Assembly (NCBI GenBank): GCA_034005145.1
Contig: JAVEVH010000003.1
Coordinates: 1-53,656, forward strand
Length of the DNA: 53,656 nucleotides
Direction of reading: 5' to 3'
Source: Candidatus Dojkabacteria bacterium
GTDB taxonomy: Bacteria > Patescibacteriota > Dojkabacteria > SC72
The position numbers and the translations under genes were made by a program. This document shows positions 8,308 to 52,934 of the stretch, one piece after another. The stretch's first letter is position 1, and each line of letters begins with the position of its first letter. The notes beneath the pieces were generated by a model. The model was not told the origin of the DNA, did not search any database, and was given only the letters and a program-made list of their open reading frames with translations.

Positions 8308-8775
8308 ATGTCAGCAAGGTCTTTAAATAAAGTTCAGTTGATAGGTAACTTAACTAGGGAACCAGAGTTAAGATATACCACTGGTGGAACTCCAGTAGTA
8401 ACATTTGGTTTAGCAACTAATAGGTCTTGGAAAGATCAAAATGGAGAGACTAAAGAGGTTGCAGAATTTCATAATATCGTTGCTTGGAACAAAATGGCTG
8501 AGATATGCCAACAGTTATTAGCAAAGGGTATGAAGATATATGTAGAGGGATCACTAACTACCAGATCATGGGAGGCAGAAGATGGTTCTACAAGATATAA
8601 AACAGAAATCAGAGTTGATGATATGATTCTTTTGGATAGTAAGGGTAAACAGGGTGCAGGTTTAGATGAGCATAAAGAGGAAGTTGAGGAAAAAGAGGTT
8701 GAAGTAGAGGAAGAGATTCCAGAAGTAGAGGCTGCAGATGAGGATCCTTTAGAGGATACTGATTTACCATTTTAA
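8308..8775 (+). CDS. ssb: single-stranded DNA-binding protein
   Basis: OB-fold N-terminus NKVQLIGNLTREPELRYT and an acidic tail ending DTDLPF. Confidence 0.9.
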   Translation: MSARSLNKVQLIGNLTREPELRYTTGGTPVVTFGLATNRSWKDQNGETKEVAEFHNIVAWNKMAEICQQLLAKGMKIYVEGSLTTRSWEAEDGSTRYKTEIRVDDMILLDSKGKQGAGLDEHKEEVEEKEVEVEEEIPEVEAADEDPLEDTDLPF

Positions 8776-32967: not shown

Positions 32968-33402
32968 TTATTCACTACTTAGTGCTTCTTGTATCTTTTG
33001 AGCATCAGGATCATCCATATTAGACTGTACTGCAGCTACTGCTGTAGGGTCCCCCTGGTTATATCTATCTAAAAGATCTTTACTTTTCTTAGTCATCTCT
33101 ATCGTATCTTTTAGATATTGGTTAAGTAATTCTAATTTCTTTGTCTCAGCATTCTCTCCATATGCAGTTATAAATACCTTATTCATTTTCTCAATAGCTT
33201 CTTCCTCTGTAGAGGGAGGTGTTTGAAGTAGATTTGCTAATTCTTCTAAAGCTGTATCATCCTCTAATTGCTCTAATGAAGTTACAGCAATATCTAATAC
33301 TTCTTCTGTAGCTAATACTAGTAATTCATCCAACTTATCTTGAGTAAATCCTAAATCCATTAATTCTTGTTTTAATGTTTCAAATTCTGTCTTAGGGTCC
33401 AT
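32968..33402 (-). CDS. acidic helical hypothetical protein (144 aa)
   Basis: ORF immediately downstream of the 664-aa gene on the same strand. Very D/E-rich. Its stop codon abuts the recombinase stop. Confidence 0.55.
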   Translation of the reverse strand: MDPKTEFETLKQELMDLGFTQDKLDELLVLATEEVLDIAVTSLEQLEDDTALEELANLLQTPPSTEEEAIEKMNKVFITAYGENAETKKLELLNQYLKDTIEMTKKSKDLLDRYNQGDPTAVAAVQSNMDDPDAQKIQEALSSE

Positions 33403-46010: not shown

Positions 46011-46235
46011 ATGGATATATATATGGTAAGAAAAACAGATGATATACAGCAATTGAAGGTACTTTTAGAGATACAGTTTAAGAGTATTGAAAAACAGCTT
46101 AAGGAGTATGATAGGAATATTTTAAAGGTATTAAAAAAACTTAATACACAAAAGAAATACTCTAATATGAATCAGTATACTGAAGATGTAGAGATTAAGG
46201 TAAGGTCATATATGGATGGAGATATGAGGGTATGA
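46011..46235 (+). CDS. small coiled-coil hypothetical protein (74 aa)
   Basis: ORF in an otherwise empty spacer. It resembles 44925..45218 in its N-terminal helix pattern. Confidence 0.45.
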   Translation: MDIYMVRKTDDIQQLKVLLEIQFKSIEKQLKEYDRNILKVLKKLNTQKKYSNMNQYTEDVEIKVRSYMDGDMRV

Positions 46236-46421: not shown

Positions 46422-46543
46422 TTCTCTTCCTCCTATCTGAGATATTTTAAGTATCAGGTTGATACCTAATTCTATCTCAGATATGCACACTACCTATTTA
46501 GTATGTAAATGATGGAAAATCGTTATTACATACATTTAAAAAG

Positions 46544-46565
46544 AACCGCAGATTATACTGCGGTT
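46544..46565 (-). terminator. rho-independent terminator of gyrA
   Basis: AACCGCAG-attata-CTGCGGTT stem, 29 nt after the gyrA stop. It is followed on the - strand by TTCTTTTT. Confidence 0.75.
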
Positions 46566-46593
46566 TCTTTATATATACAATGGGATGAGATAT

Positions 46594-49404
46594 TTAGAGT
46601 ATAGCCATTGTAGCTACTCTATCTCCTTCTCCAATATTCATAATCTTTACTCCACTTGTTTGTCTTCCTAATGTTGGTATAGCGTCTATAGATGAACGTA
46701 TTACTTTTGATTTCTCAGATATTACCACTATCTCTGCTTTAGGATGATCTAATATCCTTGCTACAGCTATCTTACCTGTCTTTTTAGTTACTCTAAAGGT
46801 AAATATGCCTGTACCACCTCTTTTCTGTTTCGTATATTCAGAAAGTTTAGACATTTTTCCATATCCATACTCTGATAGTGTAAATATCCTGTTCTCATTC
46901 GTTCTTACTACTCCCATACCTACTATAAAGTCAGTATCTGATTTAAACTTCATAGCTGTAACACCCCTAGTACTTCTACCAAGTGGTCTAACATCTTTTT
47001 CAGAGAATCTAATAGATTTACCATCTTGTGTAACAAGTATTACCTCATCATCCCCTGTTGTTGGTTTTACCCATATTAATTCATCATTTACCTCTAATTT
47101 AATAGCGGTTAATCCATTAGCTCTAATCTTTGAGAATTCATTTAAATCAGTCTTTTTAACAATACCTCCCTTAGTTACCATTAAGAAATATTTAAAATCT
47201 CTCTTTTTAACTATACCCTGTGTATCTTGTCCCTCTTGTATTTCTTCTGAACCCATTATCCCACCCTTAGGATCTCTAGTTAAAATGGAAGTAATTACCT
47301 CATTCTGATCTAACTGTACCAAGTTTATCAAAGGAATACCCTTTGCTGTTCTACCGTACTCTGGTATTTCGAATATTCTTGTAGTAAATACCCTTCCCTT
47401 ATTAGTAAAGAGTAATAACTCATCATGTGTATTACACAAAAGTACGTGCTCTATGAAGTCTCCCTCTTTAGTATCTCCTCCTGATATACCTTTTCCTCCT
47501 CTTTTTTGTGTTTGATATGTAGAAGGAGGAACTCTCTTAACATATCCAGAATGAGTGATGGTGATTAAGGTTTCTTCCTGTGCTATTAAATCCTCCTCTG
47601 ATATCTCATTTACCTTACCCTTTACCACCCTACTCTTTCTCTTATCTGCGTAGTTCTCTTTAATCTGGTCTAAATCTTTACTAATGATTTCCAAAATTTT
47701 ATCTTGGTTATCAAGTACAGCATTGTATTCAATAATTTTTTCCTTAGTTTCTTTGTAATCATTCTCTAATTTCATTCTTTCTAATGCGGCTAATCTTCTT
47801 AGTTGCATATCTAAGATTGCTTGAGCCTGTACCTCTGTAAACTTAAACTTATCCATTAAGTTTGTTTTAGCAGTCTCTTGAGTCTTTGATGCTCTAATAG
47901 TTGCTATTACTTCATCCAAAAAATCTAAAGCCTTAAGTAAGCCCTCTAATATATGTGCATGATATCTAGCCTCTGCTAAATCAAATTCATACCTTCTAAT
48001 TGTTACAGTAAGTCTAAATGAGAGGAAAAGCTCTAGCATTCTCTTAAGTGAGAGAGTTATTGGTTCCTGTTCTACTAATGCAATCATATTAGCATTAAAG
48101 GTCTTTTGCATTTCTGTATATTTAAACAGTTTGTTTAGAACTGTTTTAGGTTGTGCATCCTTTTTAAGAATAACTACAACTCTAATACCCTCTTTATTTG
48201 ACTCATCTCTAATATCTGCTATACCAGTAATTTTCTTATCTCTAACCAAATCAGCAATCTTCTCAATCATATATGCTTTGTTAACTTGGTAAGGGATTTC
48301 AGTTATTAAAATCTGGTATCTACCATTTTGACCCTCTACTATGGATGCTTGCGCTCTTTGCAAAATCTTACCTCTACCAGTAGCATATGCATTTAATATC
48401 TCATCCCTATCATATATAGTTCCTCCTGTAGGGAAATCTGGTCCAGGTACAATCTCTATTAACTCTTCTGGTGTTATCTCTGATTTAAAATCAGGGTAAA
48501 GAACCTCTCCACTCTCCCCCATCCTATCCAATATCTTTTGAATATCTTTTTCATATTCTAATGATTTAGTATCAACGTAATTCTCTACATATGTCTCTGG
48601 TTTAGAATTCAATGTCTGGGGTATTACCTCTTTAGACTCCTTTGCTTTTCGTAGTTCATTGTAAATTGCTACACCTTCCCACCTATTTTTACCTTTAATC
48701 ATTTCCTGAAGAGCATCTATTAACTCTCCAAGATTATGAGGAGGTATTTGTGTTGCCATACCTACAGCAATACCTTGACTACCGTTTGCTAAAAGATTTG
48801 GGAAAAGTGCAGGTAAAACAGTAGGCTCTAATCTAGTACCATCATAGTTAGGAAGAAATGTTACTGTACCCTTGTATAGATCCTTTAAAAGCTCAGGTGT
48901 AATCTTACCCATTCTAGCCTCTGTATATCTCATTGCTGCTGCTGGGTCTCCATCTATTGAACCGAAGTTACCCTGTCCTTCTACTAAAAGATATCTAGTA
49001 GAGAACTCTTGTGCTAATTTTACTAATGTAGGATATACAACACTCTCACCATGAGGATGGTAGTTACCAGAGGTATCTCCAGCTATCTTTGCACACTTTC
49101 TAAAGTGTGAAGATGGAGAAAGAGAAAGGTCGTTCATAGCGACTAAGATTCTTCTTTGAGAGGGCTTAAGACCATCCTTTACCTCAGGAAGAGCACGAGA
49201 GACGATAACGGACATAGAGTAATCTATATAGTTGGATTTCATCTCATCTACAATTGAACGAGGTGTTAACTCACCAGGTTTAAATGTAAGATCAAAATCC
49301 AAATCATTATCCTCTTGTAGTATGGTAGACTCTACTGAATCTTTATTCTCTACCTCTATACTCTCTTGTGCTTTAGTTATTACTTTTTTATCTATATCAG
49401 CCAT
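46594..49404 (-). CDS. gyrA: DNA gyrase subunit A (with N-terminal extension and an internal insertion)
   Basis: SVIVSRALPEVKDGLKPSQRRIL, active-site AAMRYTEARM, GPDFPTGG and C-terminal beta-pinwheel repeats. It is 936 aa. Confidence 0.95.
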   Translation of the reverse strand: MADIDKKVITKAQESIEVENKDSVESTILQEDNDLDFDLTFKPGELTPRSIVDEMKSNYIDYSMSVIVSRALPEVKDGLKPSQRRILVAMNDLSLSPSSHFRKCAKIAGDTSGNYHPHGESVVYPTLVKLAQEFSTRYLLVEGQGNFGSIDGDPAAAMRYTEARMGKITPELLKDLYKGTVTFLPNYDGTRLEPTVLPALFPNLLANGSQGIAVGMATQIPPHNLGELIDALQEMIKGKNRWEGVAIYNELRKAKESKEVIPQTLNSKPETYVENYVDTKSLEYEKDIQKILDRMGESGEVLYPDFKSEITPEELIEIVPGPDFPTGGTIYDRDEILNAYATGRGKILQRAQASIVEGQNGRYQILITEIPYQVNKAYMIEKIADLVRDKKITGIADIRDESNKEGIRVVVILKKDAQPKTVLNKLFKYTEMQKTFNANMIALVEQEPITLSLKRMLELFLSFRLTVTIRRYEFDLAEARYHAHILEGLLKALDFLDEVIATIRASKTQETAKTNLMDKFKFTEVQAQAILDMQLRRLAALERMKLENDYKETKEKIIEYNAVLDNQDKILEIISKDLDQIKENYADKRKSRVVKGKVNEISEEDLIAQEETLITITHSGYVKRVPPSTYQTQKRGGKGISGGDTKEGDFIEHVLLCNTHDELLLFTNKGRVFTTRIFEIPEYGRTAKGIPLINLVQLDQNEVITSILTRDPKGGIMGSEEIQEGQDTQGIVKKRDFKYFLMVTKGGIVKKTDLNEFSKIRANGLTAIKLEVNDELIWVKPTTGDDEVILVTQDGKSIRFSEKDVRPLGRSTRGVTAMKFKSDTDFIVGMGVVRTNENRIFTLSEYGYGKMSKLSEYTKQKRGGTGIFTFRVTKKTGKIAVARILDHPKAEIVVISEKSKVIRSSIDAIPTLGRQTSGVKIMNIGEGDRVATMAIL

Positions 49405-49422: not shown

Positions 49423-49863
49423 TTAATATGTTTTACCTTCTAAGTCAGAAGATATTTCTGCTTTTTTAAATTCGTAATCTATTGCAAGCTTACTAAGCTC
49501 AGTAAATGTCTCCATATCTGTTTTATAGTCGGTAACTATATCTTCTTCCATTGGAGATACTGAAATATTCTCTAACTCCTCCTCTTGATCATAGATATGC
49601 AATTTTACAAGATTATCATAGCGATCTGTTGTTCCCTCTTTTAGTATTTTCTCAATTGCAACCTTTCCAGCAACGGTATTATTTTCAATTTCACTCTTTA
49701 TCTTCTCTTCCAAAGCCTTGTTTGATTGGTCTTTTACTAAGATTTCTAATATTGCGTAATATGAATTTGGAACCTCATAAAAAAATCTCTTATCAATTAA
49801 CTGTGTTAGATTCTCCTTGAATTCTGGAGATTTTCTCATCTCATCTCTTGTTGTTTCCATCAT
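49423..49863 (-). CDS. acidic hypothetical protein (146 aa) between gyrB and gyrA
   Basis: It starts 4 nt after the previous ORF's stop and ends 18 nt before the gyrA ATG. About 34 D/E against 20 K/R by my count. Confidence 0.65.
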   Translation of the reverse strand: MMETTRDEMRKSPEFKENLTQLIDKRFFYEVPNSYYAILEILVKDQSNKALEEKIKSEIENNTVAGKVAIEKILKEGTTDRYDNLVKLHIYDQEEELENISVSPMEEDIVTDYKTDMETFTELSKLAIDYEFKKAEISSDLEGKTY

Positions 49864-49867
49864 ATCT

Positions 49868-50233
49868 TTATACTAAACAATTTAAATCAGAATCCTCTTC
49901 ATCCAAAAGCTCATATGGATCTATAGAGGCTTCATAAATATCTTCGTTATCATCATCTATTGGAATAGTATGTACATTATTTTCTATATCTACTCCAGAG
50001 ACAATAGCGACTGTGTCTAGATCCTTTTGGAAAGAGATTAATCTTTGACCAAATTTAGACTGTATCTCTTGTGTAAACCTCTCCCCATCTATACCATATT
50101 TAAAGAAATCAATCCTTGAATCTATATTAGGGTAGTTTTGATACAGAGCAATTAGTAACATCTCTGTTACCTCCCCTATCTTTTCTTTATCAATCTTTTT
50201 TGTATTAAGATTTTCCATATCTTTATTAAACAT
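49868..50233 (-). CDS. strongly acidic hypothetical protein (121 aa) between gyrB and gyrA
   Basis: Its ATG overlaps the gyrB stop (ATGTTTAA at 50226..50233). About 28 D/E against 11 K/R. C-terminal IDDDNEDIYEASIDPYELLDEEDSD. Confidence 0.65.
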   Translation of the reverse strand: MFNKDMENLNTKKIDKEKIGEVTEMLLIALYQNYPNIDSRIDFFKYGIDGERFTQEIQSKFGQRLISFQKDLDTVAIVSGVDIENNVHTIPIDDDNEDIYEASIDPYELLDEEDSDLNCLV

Positions 50234-52151
50234 CTAAATTAGCTCTCTTGGCATACTTTTGTATAAATCTTCTTCTAGGAGGTACCTCTGCACCCATTAA
50301 CATTTCAAATACCTTCTCTGCTTCCTCTGCATCAGCTATATGTACCTGTTTAAGTGCTCTTGTTTCTGGATCCATTGTTGTATCCCAAAGCTGTTGAGGA
50401 TTCATTTCTCCTAATCCTTTAAATCTGTTAGCTAAGGGACTCTTACCTGCAGTTTTAGCTTTCTTAACAAAGGCATCCTTTTCGTTATCATTTAAGAAGT
50501 AGTATTTCTTTTTACCAATCTCTACTTTATGTAAAGGAGGTTGAGCTACATATACGTATCCTCCATCTATTAAGGGTTTAAAGAATCTAAAAAGTAAGGT
50601 TAGTACTAAGGTAGTAATATGTAAACCATCTACATCAGCGTCACTCATAATGATGATTTTATGATATCTCAACTTACTAATATCTAAGGTAGTACCTATT
50701 CCTACTCCTAGTGCTGTTGTAATATCTTTAAACTCATTATTACCAAGTACTCTATCTACTCTATATTTATGTGTATTGATAATTTTACCTCTTAAAGGTA
50801 GTACAGCTTGATTATGCCTATCTCTACCCTGCTTAGCACTACCACCTGCAGAGTCTCCCTCTACAATGTAGAGCTCTGAGTCAGCTGGGTTATTACTAAT
50901 ACAATCTGCTAGTTTACCAGGTAAGGTAGTACTCTCTAGCGCACTCTTTCTAATTACAGCATCTCTTGCAGCTTTAGCTGCTGCTTTAGCTTTGTAAGAA
51001 AGTATAGCTTTATCTATTATCGCTTTAGCCTCTTTAGGATGTTCATCAAAGTATATTAGTAATTCATCTCTAATTACCTTAGCTACAGCATTTTTTACCT
51101 CTGGGTTATTTAACTTTATCTTAGTCTGTCCTTCAAATTGAGGATTAGCAACCTTAACTGAAATTACTGCAGTTAACCCCTCTCTTACATCATCTCCATT
51201 TAATGTTGTAGTTAATCCCTTGAGTAACTCCGACTTTTGAGCATATGTATTAATTGCACTAGTAAGAGCTGTTCTAAACCCTGAAAGATGAGTACCACCC
51301 TCTGGATTTATTATGTTATTGGTATAGCATTTTACATTCTCATCCATACTGTTTGTATACTGTATGGCTGTTTCTACAATTATTTCATCCTGTTCTTTTC
51401 TAGTGTAAAAAGGTATAGGGTTGATTAATTTCTCATCTATGTTCATAAAGAGAACATATGACTTAATACCATCTTCAAAGTAAAGATCAAATATCTTAGG
51501 AGGCTTACCCGCCTCTACTCTTTCATCCATTATTGATATCTTTAAACCTGCTGTTAGGTATGCATGTTGTCTACATTTTTTAACAATTTCTTTAAAATCA
51601 AAACTAGTTTCTGAAAATATCTCATCATCAGGCATAAACCTATGCTCTGTACCATTAACCTCTCTTGTATTCCCTACCTTTTTTACAGGATATTGAGGAA
51701 TTCCCCTCCTATATTCCTGTTGATACTTCTCTTTATCTCTTACTACCGTAGTTATCATCCACTCTGATAGCGCATTGGTACATTTCATACCTACACCGTG
51801 TAAACCACCAGACACTTTATACGCACCCTCTTCAAACTTACCACCGGCATGGAGATTAGTCATAACTGTTTCAAGTGTAGATACCTTTGTTTGAGCATGT
51901 ATTTCTACAGGGATACCCCTACCATTATCTTTTATTGAGATAGAGCCATCCTTATACAAACTTACCCATATCCTATCACAGTATCCTGCTATAGCTTCAT
52001 CTACTGAGTTATCTAATATCTCTGTAAAAATATGGTGTAACCCTTCTCTATCGGTTGAACCAATGTACATAGCAGGTCTCTTTCTTACTGCTTCTAACCC
52101 TTGTAAAACTTGAATATTGGATGCACCGTATTCACTTTTATTCTTAACCAT
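50226..52151 (-). CDS. gyrB: DNA gyrase subunit B
   Basis: GLEAVRKRPAMYIG, ATPase block EILDNSVDEA, Toprim EGDSAGG and PLRGKIIN, then C-terminal RFKGLGEMNP. Confidence 0.95.
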   Translation of the reverse strand: MVKNKSEYGASNIQVLQGLEAVRKRPAMYIGSTDREGLHHIFTEILDNSVDEAIAGYCDRIWVSLYKDGSISIKDNGRGIPVEIHAQTKVSTLETVMTNLHAGGKFEEGAYKVSGGLHGVGMKCTNALSEWMITTVVRDKEKYQQEYRRGIPQYPVKKVGNTREVNGTEHRFMPDDEIFSETSFDFKEIVKKCRQHAYLTAGLKISIMDERVEAGKPPKIFDLYFEDGIKSYVLFMNIDEKLINPIPFYTRKEQDEIIVETAIQYTNSMDENVKCYTNNIINPEGGTHLSGFRTALTSAINTYAQKSELLKGLTTTLNGDDVREGLTAVISVKVANPQFEGQTKIKLNNPEVKNAVAKVIRDELLIYFDEHPKEAKAIIDKAILSYKAKAAAKAARDAVIRKSALESTTLPGKLADCISNNPADSELYIVEGDSAGGSAKQGRDRHNQAVLPLRGKIINTHKYRVDRVLGNNEFKDITTALGVGIGTTLDISKLRYHKIIIMSDADVDGLHITTLVLTLLFRFFKPLIDGGYVYVAQPPLHKVEIGKKKYYFLNDNEKDAFVKKAKTAGKSPLANRFKGLGEMNPQQLWDTTMDPETRALKQVHIADAEEAEKVFEMLMGAEVPPRRRFIQKYAKRANLDV

Positions 52152-52241
52152 TATGTATCTTCTTTAAATTAGTCTGTAATATGTTCTATTCAAAGTCCAG
52201 GTATATTCTATATATTATAGGGGGAAATGTTAAGAGCTAAG

Positions 52242-52934
52242 TTATCTTGTTAAATCAAGATAAAGGCTCTCAAGCACTAATCTCCTATTACCATTGGCTT
52301 CTACTTTTCTCTTTGCATTTACTACTTTACCAATATCATTATAGATTTTTTTTACATCTACTCCCTCTCCTATTTTACTCTCTAAGTTCTTCTGAAGATG
52401 TAATTCTAAGTTCCTAAGTAAGAGTAATGTATCATCTCTCTCTTTGGAAATACCTTCTATTCTCTCAAAAGCTTGTAAAAGGTCAAGCTCAAATATATTA
52501 TCATACTCTAATTCAACCTCCCTTTCATCTTTTGTATATACCTTAAAACATCTGGAAAGGACTGTAGGTAGTAAATTCTTCTCATTACTGGTAGTAAGTA
52601 TATATACAGTGGTGTCAGTACTCTCTTCTAATGTTTTTAGTAAAGAATTTTGTGCCTGTGGAGTTAATTTCTCAGAATTAAATATTAACCCTACCTGAGC
52701 TTTCTCTTTAAAAGGAGTATACATCATTTCTTTTTGAAACTCTTTTACATCCTCTATACCAATACTCTTTACATTATCACTTACTAGAGTATGGATATCT
52801 GGGTTTTTACTATTAAAGAGATCTTCATTTATATCCCTCTGCCATAGCCTATTTAGAAGAATCTTTACTCCCTCCTTTATATTTTTCTCATTATTGCCTA
52901 CAATTAAGTATGTCATTATGGTACATTTTACCAT
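52242..52934 (-). CDS. holB: DNA polymerase III delta-prime-like clamp-loader subunit (short, P-loop degenerate)
   Basis: AQNSLLKTLEE ... VYILTTSNEKNLLPTVLSRCF blocks. Only ~225 aa. The N-terminus YLIVGNNEKN replaces the usual GxxGxGK. An alternative start exists at 52916. Confidence 0.65.
   Translation of the reverse strand: MVKCTIMTYLIVGNNEKNIKEGVKILLNRLWQRDINEDLFNSKNPDIHTLVSDNVKSIGIEDVKEFQKEMMYTPFKEKAQVGLIFNSEKLTPQAQNSLLKTLEESTDTTVYILTTSNEKNLLPTVLSRCFKVYTKDEREVELEYDNIFELDLLQAFERIEGISKERDDTLLLLRNLELHLQKNLESKIGEGVDVKKIYNDIGKVVNAKRKVEANGNRRLVLESLYLDLTR

What the first reader, a model, noticed from the sequence alone, without database searches (positions are those of the whole stretch)
49423..50233. 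Two small, strongly acidic orphan proteins wedged between gyrB and gyrA
Seen: the gyrB stop overlaps the start of a 121-aa ORF in the octamer ATGTTTAA (50226..50233). That ORF ends 4 nt before a 146-aa ORF, which ends 18 nt before the gyrA ATG (49404). This leaves no room for a terminator or a separate promoter, so the four genes look co-transcribed, and gyrB and ORF121 look translationally coupled. By my count ORF121 has about 28 D/E against 11 K/R, with an IDDDNEDIYEASIDPYELLDEEDSD tail. ORF146 has about 34 D/E against 20 K/R. I see no pentapeptide repeats (Qnr/MfpA), no zinc finger (YacG), and no SbmC/GyrI, CcdB or ParE-like motifs. Established: gyrB and gyrA are normally adjacent or unlinked, and several known gyrase modulators are small acidic DNA mimics. 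Inference: these may be dedicated gyrase accessory or regulatory factors, possibly tied to the unusual GyrA encoded here.
Basis: partly seen in the sequence, partly recalled or inferred. Interest (0 to 1): 0.72.

Follow-up and report, generated by a model that had tools for sequence, protein, structure and literature searches.

The report
Small acidic genes inside gyrase operon
Two real, small, acidic proteins are encoded between the two DNA gyrase genes of an uncultured Dojkabacteria bacterium; one belongs to an undescribed family found only at this spot, the other is a very young gene, and a link to gyrase is plausible but unproven.

Summary
On the minus strand, gyrB, a 121-aa ORF, a 146-aa ORF and gyrA are packed with -8, 4 and 18 nt between them. 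Both small ORFs are under purifying selection (dN/dS 0.13-0.26).

The organism is a Candidatus Dojkabacteria (Patescibacteria).

- **ORF146 is not an orphan.** It belongs to an undescribed family ("X") of about 54 clusters of 116-158 aa acidic proteins. Every copy whose context was examined (17 distinct loci plus the window's own cluster) lies between gyrB and gyrA. The predicted fold is confident (pLDDT 87) and matches nothing in the PDB or among viral models.
- **X is dispensable and fast-evolving.** It changes about ten times faster than gyrase, has been lost in many sister lineages, is replaced by an unrelated ORF in one, and shows allele replacement by recombination.
- **ORF121 is a true lineage-restricted orphan**, unrelated to X.

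No known gyrase-modulator family matches either protein, and X is not tied to the unusual GyrA features. A gyrase-modulating or gyrase-protecting role is the best guess (about 0.4). A passenger gene in a permissive operon site is nearly as likely.

The parts
52205..52233 (-). Best sigma-70-like promoter match (TTAACA-17-TAGAAT, 10/12) in the holB-gyrB gap. Candidate operon promoter.
   Evidence: This is a consensus match only. The total number of promoter-like sites in the region is below the shuffle expectation.
50226..52151 (-). gyrB, 641 aa, complete. No intein in this strain.
   Evidence: HATPase_c, DNA_gyraseB, Toprim and DNA_gyraseB_C domains are all present.
49868..50233 (-). ORF121, 121 aa, or 116 aa if translation starts at Met6 (50218). 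pI 4.1, net charge -17. Lineage-restricted orphan with a conserved acidic C-terminal third.
49423..49863 (-). ORF146, 146 aa, pI 4.5, net charge -14. Member of the new family X, with a predicted alpha-alpha-alpha / beta-beta-beta / alpha-alpha fold.
49535..49834 (-). Central part of ORF146 that differs (70-79% nucleotide identity) from strain L001, whose flanks are 93-100% identical. A recombination or allele-replacement tract.
46594..49404 (-). gyrA, 936 aa, with a clade-specific acidic N-terminal extension and a ~90-aa insertion before the PGPDFPTGG motif.
46544..46565 (-). GC-rich hairpin followed by a T run, 29 nt downstream of the gyrA stop. Candidate operon terminator, bidirectional.

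Best explanation
**Shown.** gyrB, ORF121, ORF146 and gyrA form one compact unit in a Candidatus Dojkabacteria genome, and both small ORFs encode real, selected, acidic proteins.

- ORF146 belongs to a previously undescribed family, X. Its members are standalone proteins of 116-158 aa with pI 4.2-5.8. The predicted fold is a three-helix N-terminal part, a three-stranded sheet and two C-terminal helices.
- X is restricted to one Dojkabacteria clade and is encoded only in the gyrB-gyrA gap.
- X probably arose at the base of that clade and was lost several times.
- It evolves about ten times faster than the flanking gyrase genes and exchanges alleles by recombination.
- ORF121 is a much younger, unrelated addition, found only in the window's species cluster.

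**Inferred.** Because X is made from the same transcript as GyrB and GyrA, it most likely acts on gyrase. It would be a non-essential acidic modulator or target-protection factor. It would bind the basic DNA-binding surfaces of GyrA or GyrB reversibly, as GyrI, YacG, MfpA/Qnr and the phage peptide Igy do, but with an unrelated fold. ORF121, whose conserved part includes an acidic tail, would be a second modulator of this kind. No binding or mechanism is demonstrated.
For: - **Tight spacing, no internal terminator**.
- **Purifying selection on both ORFs**: omega 0.13-0.26.
- **Family size**: the exhaustive profile search gives 58 hits, about 54 of them standalone small proteins.
- **Position**: every context examined is gyrB-X-gyrA with spacers of about 5-25 nt. 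This holds down to 75% GyrB identity and for X hits as weak as E about 1e-4. No copy occurs elsewhere in 1.38 Mb of loci.
- **Negative charge is conserved family-wide**: median pI 4.56, net charge -2 to -18, with several positionally conserved acidic sites (D45, E71, D92, D129).
- **A genuine fold**: AF2 model with pLDDT 87 and pTM 0.80.
- **Three unrelated acidic small proteins** have been recruited to this same gap in one clade: X, ORF121 and the 168-aa ORF of L119.
- **Signs of conflict or protection**: fast evolution, presence/absence variation and allele replacement fit the protective or conflict-type roles reviewed for gyrase-binding proteins (PMC10886550).
Against: - The whole region (holB-gyrB-...-gyrA-VanY-sortase) is syntenic across the clade, so constant position carries little independent weight.
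- X is absent in 3 of 7 species genomes and 8 of 13 metagenome loci of the clade, with no visible compensating change in GyrA.
- Other Patescibacteria have clearly unrelated genes in this gap, for example an inorganic pyrophosphatase.
- Gyrase is 75-90% conserved while X is only 20-34% identical. A fixed interface on such a conserved enzyme would be expected to be better conserved.
- Acidic small proteins are common in this genome.
- There is no homology or fold similarity to any known gyrase binder.
- No interaction prediction could be run.
Confidence: 0.4

Rival explanations
1. Passenger genes. The gyrB-gyrA gap is a permissive, constitutively transcribed 'safe harbour'. New small genes can be expressed there without their own promoter. 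X and ORF121 would have cellular roles unrelated to gyrase and stay there only by descent.
For: - The gap holds different things in related lineages: nothing, X, ORF121 plus X, or an unrelated 168-aa ORF in L119. In L045 it holds a pyrophosphatase, and in L023 a 216-aa ORF with only a weak sub-threshold DUF4352 match.
- X has been lost repeatedly.
- The neighbourhood is fully syntenic, so position is inherited.
- X evolves about ten times faster than gyrase.
- X presence does not track GyrA features.
Against: - All three clade-specific occupants of the gap are acidic small proteins rather than a random sample of functions.
- X has been retained, with a conserved fold and charge, across lineages as divergent as 75% GyrB identity.
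- No X copy has ever been seen elsewhere.
Confidence: 0.35
2. Conflict genes not aimed at the cell's own gyrase. X and ORF121 would be fast-evolving immunity, anti-phage or anti-toxin-type factors (for example DNA mimics that block restriction enzymes, phage proteins or host proteins). They would merely use the gyrase operon for expression.
For: - Elevated omega relative to neighbouring genes.
- Sharp allele replacement confined to ORF146.
- Presence/absence variation between close lineages.
- Lineage-specific gain of ORF121.
Against: - No match to PADLOC or PHROGs models.
- No copies on viral contigs, phage records or plasmids.
- No partner toxin gene. Both proteins are acidic and their neighbours are housekeeping genes.
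- Overall omega of about 0.2 indicates purifying, not diversifying, selection.
Confidence: 0.12
3. ORF121 is an ancient tandem duplicate of X that has diverged beyond recognition. The locus would then hold two paralogous X-type proteins.
For: - Both begin with MF(N/E), and many X genes start with ATGTTTAA/ATGTTTGA, the same octamer that ends gyrB. This offers a microhomology route for a duplication.
- The junction TAAAGATATG occurs at both gene boundaries.
- The low-confidence ORF121 model has three N-terminal helices at positions similar to those in X.
Against: - The X-profile score of ORF121 is no better than that of 26-40% of 2000 shuffles.
- hhalign probability is below 1%.
- The ORF121 model is unreliable (pLDDT 45).
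Confidence: 0.07
4. The ORFs are chance reading frames or annotation artefacts in an AT-rich spacer.
For: None beyond the lack of database annotation.
Against: - Frames are preserved with omega 0.13-0.26 at dS up to 0.7.
- The family has 58 profile hits.
- The fold prediction is confident.
- Stop-rich 33% GC sequence makes open frames of 121 and 146 codons very unlikely by chance (own estimate from base composition, not a tool result).
Confidence: 0.01

Closest known systems
GyrI / SbmC (E. coli gyrase inhibitory and protective protein)
   Same: A small cytoplasmic protein proposed to bind gyrase reversibly and protect it from poisons (PMC10886550). X would play this functional role under the best explanation.
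   Different: No GyrI-like Pfam match in any of 62 X members or in ORF121. No PDB fold match. To my knowledge GyrI is encoded away from gyrA and gyrB, and the review describes no operon linkage.
MfpA / Qnr pentapeptide-repeat DNA mimics
   Same: Acidic proteins that occupy the DNA-binding saddle of gyrase and protect it. This is the same mechanism class as proposed for X.
   Different: X and ORF121 have no pentapeptide repeats. The predicted X fold is alpha/beta, not a beta-helix. X is much smaller.
YacG
   Same: A small endogenous gyrase regulator that blocks DNA binding.
   Different: YacG is a zinc-finger protein. ORF146 has no cysteine and ORF121 has only one (sequence). There is no Pfam match.
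Phage LUZ24 Igy peptide
   Same: A small anionic protein modelled as a DNA mimic acting on GyrB (PMC10886550).
   Different: Igy is phage-encoded and inhibitory. X has no relatives in viral contigs, phage records or viral structure models. The viral-contig scan for X could not be run because the alignment was too divergent.
Phage T4 three-gene topoisomerase II (gp39, gp60, gp52)
   Same: A type II topoisomerase specified by three genes rather than two (own knowledge).
   Different: In T4 the extra gene is a split-off piece of the GyrB homologue. Here GyrB and GyrA are both complete, and X matches neither of them.
C-terminal acidic tail of E. coli GyrA
   Same: An acidic element that tunes DNA wrapping by the GyrA C-terminal domain (own knowledge). 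The Dojkabacteria GyrA ends without such a tail, and ORF121 carries a conserved acidic C-terminal segment.
   Different: The E. coli tail is part of GyrA itself, whereas this would act in trans. The analogy was not tested.

Membership tests
Family X (new, defined here: Dojkabacteria gyrB-gyrA interposed acidic protein) | Significant match to the family profile over the full length | tested here: met
   ORF146 (P0004) scores E 1.5e-43 over profile positions 1-129. It aligns end to end with the members.
Family X (new, defined here) | Encoded between gyrB and gyrA on the same strand with short spacers | tested here: met
   Window. Relatives.
Family X (new, defined here) | ORF121 is also a member | tested here: not met
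   The hmmsearch score is no better than shuffles. hhalign probability is below 1%.
Pentapeptide-repeat proteins (Qnr/MfpA) | Tandem pentapeptide repeats (Pfam Pentapeptide families) | tested here: not met
   No such Pfam hit at E<=1 for ORF121 or ORF146, nor at E<=0.01 in 62 X members.
YacG | Cys4 zinc finger | tested here: not met
   ORF146 has no Cys and ORF121 has one Cys (sequences). No Pfam or NCBIfam hit.
GyrI/SbmC (GyrI-like, SHS2 fold) | GyrI-like domain, or structural similarity to SbmC | tested here: not met
   No Pfam hit. The Foldseek search of the PDB gives no match with E<0.05 or TM>0.3.
CcdB / ParE gyrase toxins | Toxin domain plus an adjacent antitoxin gene | tested here: not met
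   No Pfam hits. Both small proteins are acidic and are flanked by gyrB and gyrA only.
DNA-mimic proteins (a functional class, not a homologous family) | High net negative charge | tested here: met
   ORF121 has net charge -17 and pI 4.1. ORF146 has net charge -14 and pI 4.5. The X family has median pI 4.56. This is only weakly diagnostic, because 15% of the window's ORFs have pI below 4.6.
DNA-mimic proteins (functional class) | Surface carboxylates arranged like a DNA backbone, and competition with DNA for a DNA-binding protein | not testable with these tools
   Model coordinates are not exposed. No complex prediction or assay is available.
Split type II topoisomerase subunit (T4 gp60-like) | The extra gene is homologous to a missing segment of GyrB or GyrA | tested here: not met
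   GyrB and GyrA have full domain sets. The X profile hits no topoisomerase in 1.84 billion proteins.

The most novel reading that the evidence does not exclude
X is a dedicated, operon-encoded partner of DNA gyrase with a fold not seen in solved structures. It would be made in step with GyrB and GyrA and would bind the enzyme to tune it or shield it from gyrase poisons. To my knowledge this would be the first gyrase accessory protein found embedded in the gyrase operon itself. ORF121 would be a second, newly recruited partner in one lineage.
Probability: 0.2. Interest if true: 0.75.

Novelty: new variant of a known kind. Interest (0 to 1): 0.45.

Why it matters
Gyrase is an essential enzyme and a major antibiotic target. 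The known protein modulators of gyrase are few, and to my knowledge all are encoded away from the gyrase genes. A family of small acidic proteins encoded only inside the gyrase operon would be a new way of regulating or protecting the enzyme. Its fold has no solved counterpart. It could also give a new interface for inhibitor design. The idea can be tested with recombinant proteins, although the organism is uncultured.

If X turns out to be unrelated to gyrase, the locus is still a clear example of an essential operon serving as a landing site. New, fast-evolving and orphan genes are born, swapped and lost there in reduced Patescibacteria genomes.

Tried and rejected
1. **Curated libraries.** Pfam, NCBIfam, PHROGs, PADLOC and PDB-sequence searches for both proteins and 62 X members gave only sub-threshold noise.
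2. **Fold searches.** Foldseek of the confident X model against the PDB and BFVD gave nothing with E<0.05 or TM>0.3. The weak alpha-beta-beta-beta-alpha look-alikes (dsRBD, SRP9/14, HPF, CinA) were not significant and were dropped.
3. **ORF121 structure.** The model had pLDDT 45 with only four near-identical sequences, so no fold search was run on it.
4. **ORF121 as a duplicate of X.** Rejected at the sequence level.
5. **More ORF121 relatives.** None were found in JGI metagenome contigs, IMG/VR, phage records or plasmids. The viral-contig scan with the X alignment could not run because the alignment is too divergent.
6. **Long proteins hitting the X profile** (P0057, P0058, P0061, P0070). The two that were examined, P0058 and P0070, are repetitive Ig/FN3-type surface proteins, so those hits are compositional. 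P0057 and P0061 were not examined. They are very long (6724 and 2702 aa) and give several short, weak matched stretches.
7. **Missing Shine-Dalgarno sites as evidence of coupling.** Uninformative, because only 2 of 48 ORFs in the window have such a site.
8. **Link between X and the GyrA N-terminal extension or insertion.** Rejected, because both features occur in X-less genomes.
9. **X as a split gyrase fragment.** Rejected.
10. **Structured RNA in the operon.** No Rfam match at E<=0.1.
11. **Literature.** No description of a gene between gyrB and gyrA, or of Dojkabacteria gyrase, was found.
12. **Large gyrB-gyrA gaps in distant high-GC bacteria.** The ORFs there are ambiguous or unrelated, so this was not pursued.

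Full report
**1. Observation**

On the minus strand the window encodes five genes in a row.

| Gene | Coordinates | Size |
|---|---|---|
| holB-like | 52934..52242 | 230 aa |
| gyrB | 52151..50226 | 641 aa |
| ORF121 | 50233..49868 | 121 aa |
| ORF146 | 49863..49423 | 146 aa |
| gyrA | 49404..46594 | 936 aa |

- The spacings from gyrB onward are -8, 4 and 18 nt.
- GyrB and GyrA have their full Pfam domain sets.
- A consensus scan puts the best minus-strand promoter-like site (10/12) in the holB-gyrB gap. The only minus-strand terminator-like hairpin lies 29 nt after gyrA, with none in between. These are pattern matches only, but they fit one transcription unit.
- No Rfam family matches the region.

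**2. Are the ORFs real genes?**

Yes. Orthologues of both ORFs occur in every close relative, in the same order.
- Pairwise dN/dS is 0.13-0.26 at dS up to about 0.7.
- In the same genome pairs, gyrB and gyrA have omega 0.02-0.03 and holB has 0.03-0.08.
- The small proteins are therefore constrained, but they change about ten times faster at the protein level than the gyrase genes around them.

**3. The start of ORF121**

- The ATGTTTAA overlap is produced by GyrB's conserved C-terminal codons (...L-D-V-stop = ttaGATGTTTAA).
- The same octamer is present in relatives that have no ORF121 (L014, L018, L091, L093).
- A second conserved ATG (Met6, at 50218) lies 7 nt after the gyrB stop.
- NCBI and Logan list a 116-aa form on the same 53,656-bp contig, a length that matches a Met6 start. 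JGI lists 121 aa.
- Either start is tightly spaced. Translational coupling is plausible but not shown.
- This genome almost never uses Shine-Dalgarno sites (2 of 48 ORFs), so their absence here carries no information.

**4. Organism**

GyrB relatives in species-representative genomes identify the source as Candidatus Dojkabacteria (WS6, Patescibacteria/CPR). Some of these genomes are labelled Saccharibacteria by automated submissions. One clade shares 75-90% GyrB identity, and the next relatives are at about 50-55%.

**5. ORF146 belongs to a family ('X')**

- A first search found only 75-96% identical relatives.
- Related species genomes carry 128-141 aa ORFs at the same position that are 28-34% identical.
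- A profile search found 12 more clusters.
- An exhaustive profile search of 1.84 billion representatives gave 58 hits at E<=1e-3. About 54 are standalone proteins of 116-158 aa.
- Four of the 58 hits are long proteins. The two that were examined (P0058, P0070) are repetitive Ig/FN3-type surface proteins.
- Sources give family members no name or 'hypothetical protein'.
- No member matches Pfam, NCBIfam, PHROGs, PADLOC or PDB sequences.

**6. Position of X**

- Every X whose context was retrieved lies between gyrB and gyrA on the same strand, with spacers of about 5-25 nt. This includes hits as weak as E 1e-4.
- The X profile finds no other copy in 1.38 Mb of fetched loci or elsewhere in the window.
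- The whole block (T2SSE, FemAB, holB, gyrB, gyrA, VanY, sortase) is syntenic in all these loci. Vertical inheritance alone can therefore explain the constant position.

**7. X is dispensable and the gap is dynamic**

- In species genomes L012, L015 and L017, gyrB and gyrA abut.
- A metagenome scan with the clade-specific GyrA N-terminus returned 13 junctions from the clade that include the gyrB end (a further clade locus, L116, starts too close to gyrA to show the gap). Four have X, eight have none, and L119 has an unrelated 168-aa ORF (pI 5.1, no Pfam match).
- On GyrB trees, X-bearing and X-less lineages interleave, and X occurs in the deepest branches. This favours an ancestral X with several losses. 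The trees are neighbour-joining trees on a very conserved protein, so they are only indicative.
- Further away, a Shapirobacteria genome has an inorganic pyrophosphatase in the gap. A distant Dojkabacteria genome has a 216-aa ORF with only a weak, sub-threshold DUF4352 match (22.4 bits against a cut-off of 25.9).

**8. ORF121**

- Only three clusters (76-97% identical) exist among 5.8 billion proteins, all in the window's species cluster.
- No relatives were found in JGI metagenome contigs, IMG/VR, phage records or plasmids.
- It is not detectably related to X.
- Its AF2 model is unreliable (pLDDT 45).
- By my count from the invariant-column list, residues 26-72 are 79% invariant among orthologues and the acidic C-terminal third (73-121) is 69% invariant. 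The N-terminal 25 residues are 48% invariant.
- It is a genuine taxonomically restricted gene, added once upstream of X.

**9. Properties of X**

- AF2 on a 17-sequence alignment gives a confident model (pLDDT 87, pTM 0.80). It has helices at 6-10, 13-30, 35-42 and 46-60, strands at 67-74, 82-92 and 95-103, and helices at 117-124 and 130-142.
- Foldseek finds nothing significant in the PDB or BFVD. AlphaFold DB could not be searched, so novelty of the fold is not established.
- Across 62 members, pI is 4.2-5.8 and net charge is -2 to -18.
- Conserved positions are mostly hydrophobic core residues plus K25/R26, D45, N48, K67, E71, D92, T119 and D129.
- Acidity is marked but not unique. ORF121 and ORF146 rank 2nd and 4th of 48 ORFs in the window.

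**10. Recombination**

- The window and strain L001 are 93-100% identical per 100 nt through holB, gyrB, ORF121 and the first ~30 nt of ORF146.
- Identity then drops to 70-79% over 49834..49535 and recovers to 91% at the 3' end.
- dS is 0.65 in ORF146, against 0.04 in ORF121 and 0.125 in gyrB.
- L001's allele is about equally distant (71-75%) from all the others.
- A divergent X allele has therefore been swapped into an otherwise near-identical background.

**11. Link to the unusual GyrA**

The clade's GyrA has a 45-60 aa acidic N-terminal extension and a ~90-aa insertion before the PGPDFPTGG motif. Both are present in X-less L015 and L017, so X is not tied to them.

**12. Interpretation**

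- *Shown:* two real, co-located, acidic, non-essential small proteins. One belongs to a clade-wide undescribed family and one is an orphan.
- *Inferred:* a gyrase-directed modulating or protecting role, suggested by co-expression, conserved negative charge, and repeated recruitment of acidic small proteins to this gap. A 2024 review lists ParE, CcdB, TsbT, microcin B17, phage peptides such as Igy, FicT, Qnr/MfpA, YacG, MurI and GyrI, and does not describe any of them as encoded between gyrB and gyrA (PMC10886550). I rate this reading at about 0.4.
- *Main rival:* the nearly equal alternative (about 0.35) is that the gap is simply a permissive, well-expressed landing site and these genes are passengers. 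Frequent loss, unrelated occupants in other lineages and the poor conservation of X relative to gyrase all favour this reading.
- *What is missing:* no interaction evidence could be produced here.

**13. Verdict**

The finding is a moderately interesting lead (0.45). It is a new protein family plus an orphan gene in an unusual, testable genomic position, but there is no functional evidence.

Noticed in passing
window 49535-49834 (central ORF146), compared with L001: Sharp mosaic. Nucleotide identity to strain L001 is 93-100% across holB, gyrB and ORF121, but 70-79% in the middle of ORF146 (dS 0.65 against 0.04-0.12). A divergent allele has been swapped in by recombination.
   Followed up: partly
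window 50226-52151 (gyrB); L002, L007, L008, L010, L018: Intein presence/absence polymorphism. gyrB is 641 aa here and in L001. It is 1073-1075 aa, with an Intein_splicing domain, in otherwise 97-98% identical relatives and in L018.
   Followed up: no
window 50226-50233: The ATGTTTAA 'overlap' comes from GyrB's conserved L-D-V-stop codons and also exists in relatives without ORF121. NCBI and Logan list a 116-aa form of ORF121, a length that matches a Met6 start (50218). The string TAAAGATATG recurs at both the gyrB/ORF121 and the ORF121/ORF146 junctions.
   Followed up: partly
whole window: Shine-Dalgarno motifs are almost absent. Only 2 of 48 ORFs have a recognisable site upstream, so translation initiation in this organism evidently does not rely on them.
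   Followed up: partly
window 49234-49404 and about 48415-48687 (gyrA): GyrA carries a 45-60 aa acidic N-terminal extension and a ~90-aa insertion just before the PGPDFPTGG motif. Both are conserved across the Dojkabacteria clade, including X-less genomes. Other Patescibacteria have shorter versions.
   Followed up: partly
L119 1473-1988; L045 9928-10491; L023 9918-10568: Other genes occupy the gyrB-gyrA gap in other lineages: an unrelated 168-aa ORF (pI 5.1, no Pfam hit) in a clade member, an inorganic pyrophosphatase in a Shapirobacteria genome, and in a distant Dojkabacteria genome a 216-aa ORF with only a weak sub-threshold DUF4352 match.
   Followed up: partly
window 46543-46566: A GC-rich hairpin that scores as a terminator on both strands lies between the gyrA stop and a convergent 74-aa ORF (46011-46235, + strand). 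An opposite-strand ORF of 62-75 aa is called downstream of gyrA in most relatives (74 aa in L007, L009 and L091). Homology between these ORFs was not tested.
   Followed up: no
window 32968-33402 (-) and 8308-8775 (+): Two other small, strongly acidic ORFs: 144 aa with pI 4.1 and net charge -21, and 155 aa with pI 4.5 and net charge -16. They show that very acidic small proteins are not unique to the gyrase operon in this genome.
   Followed up: no
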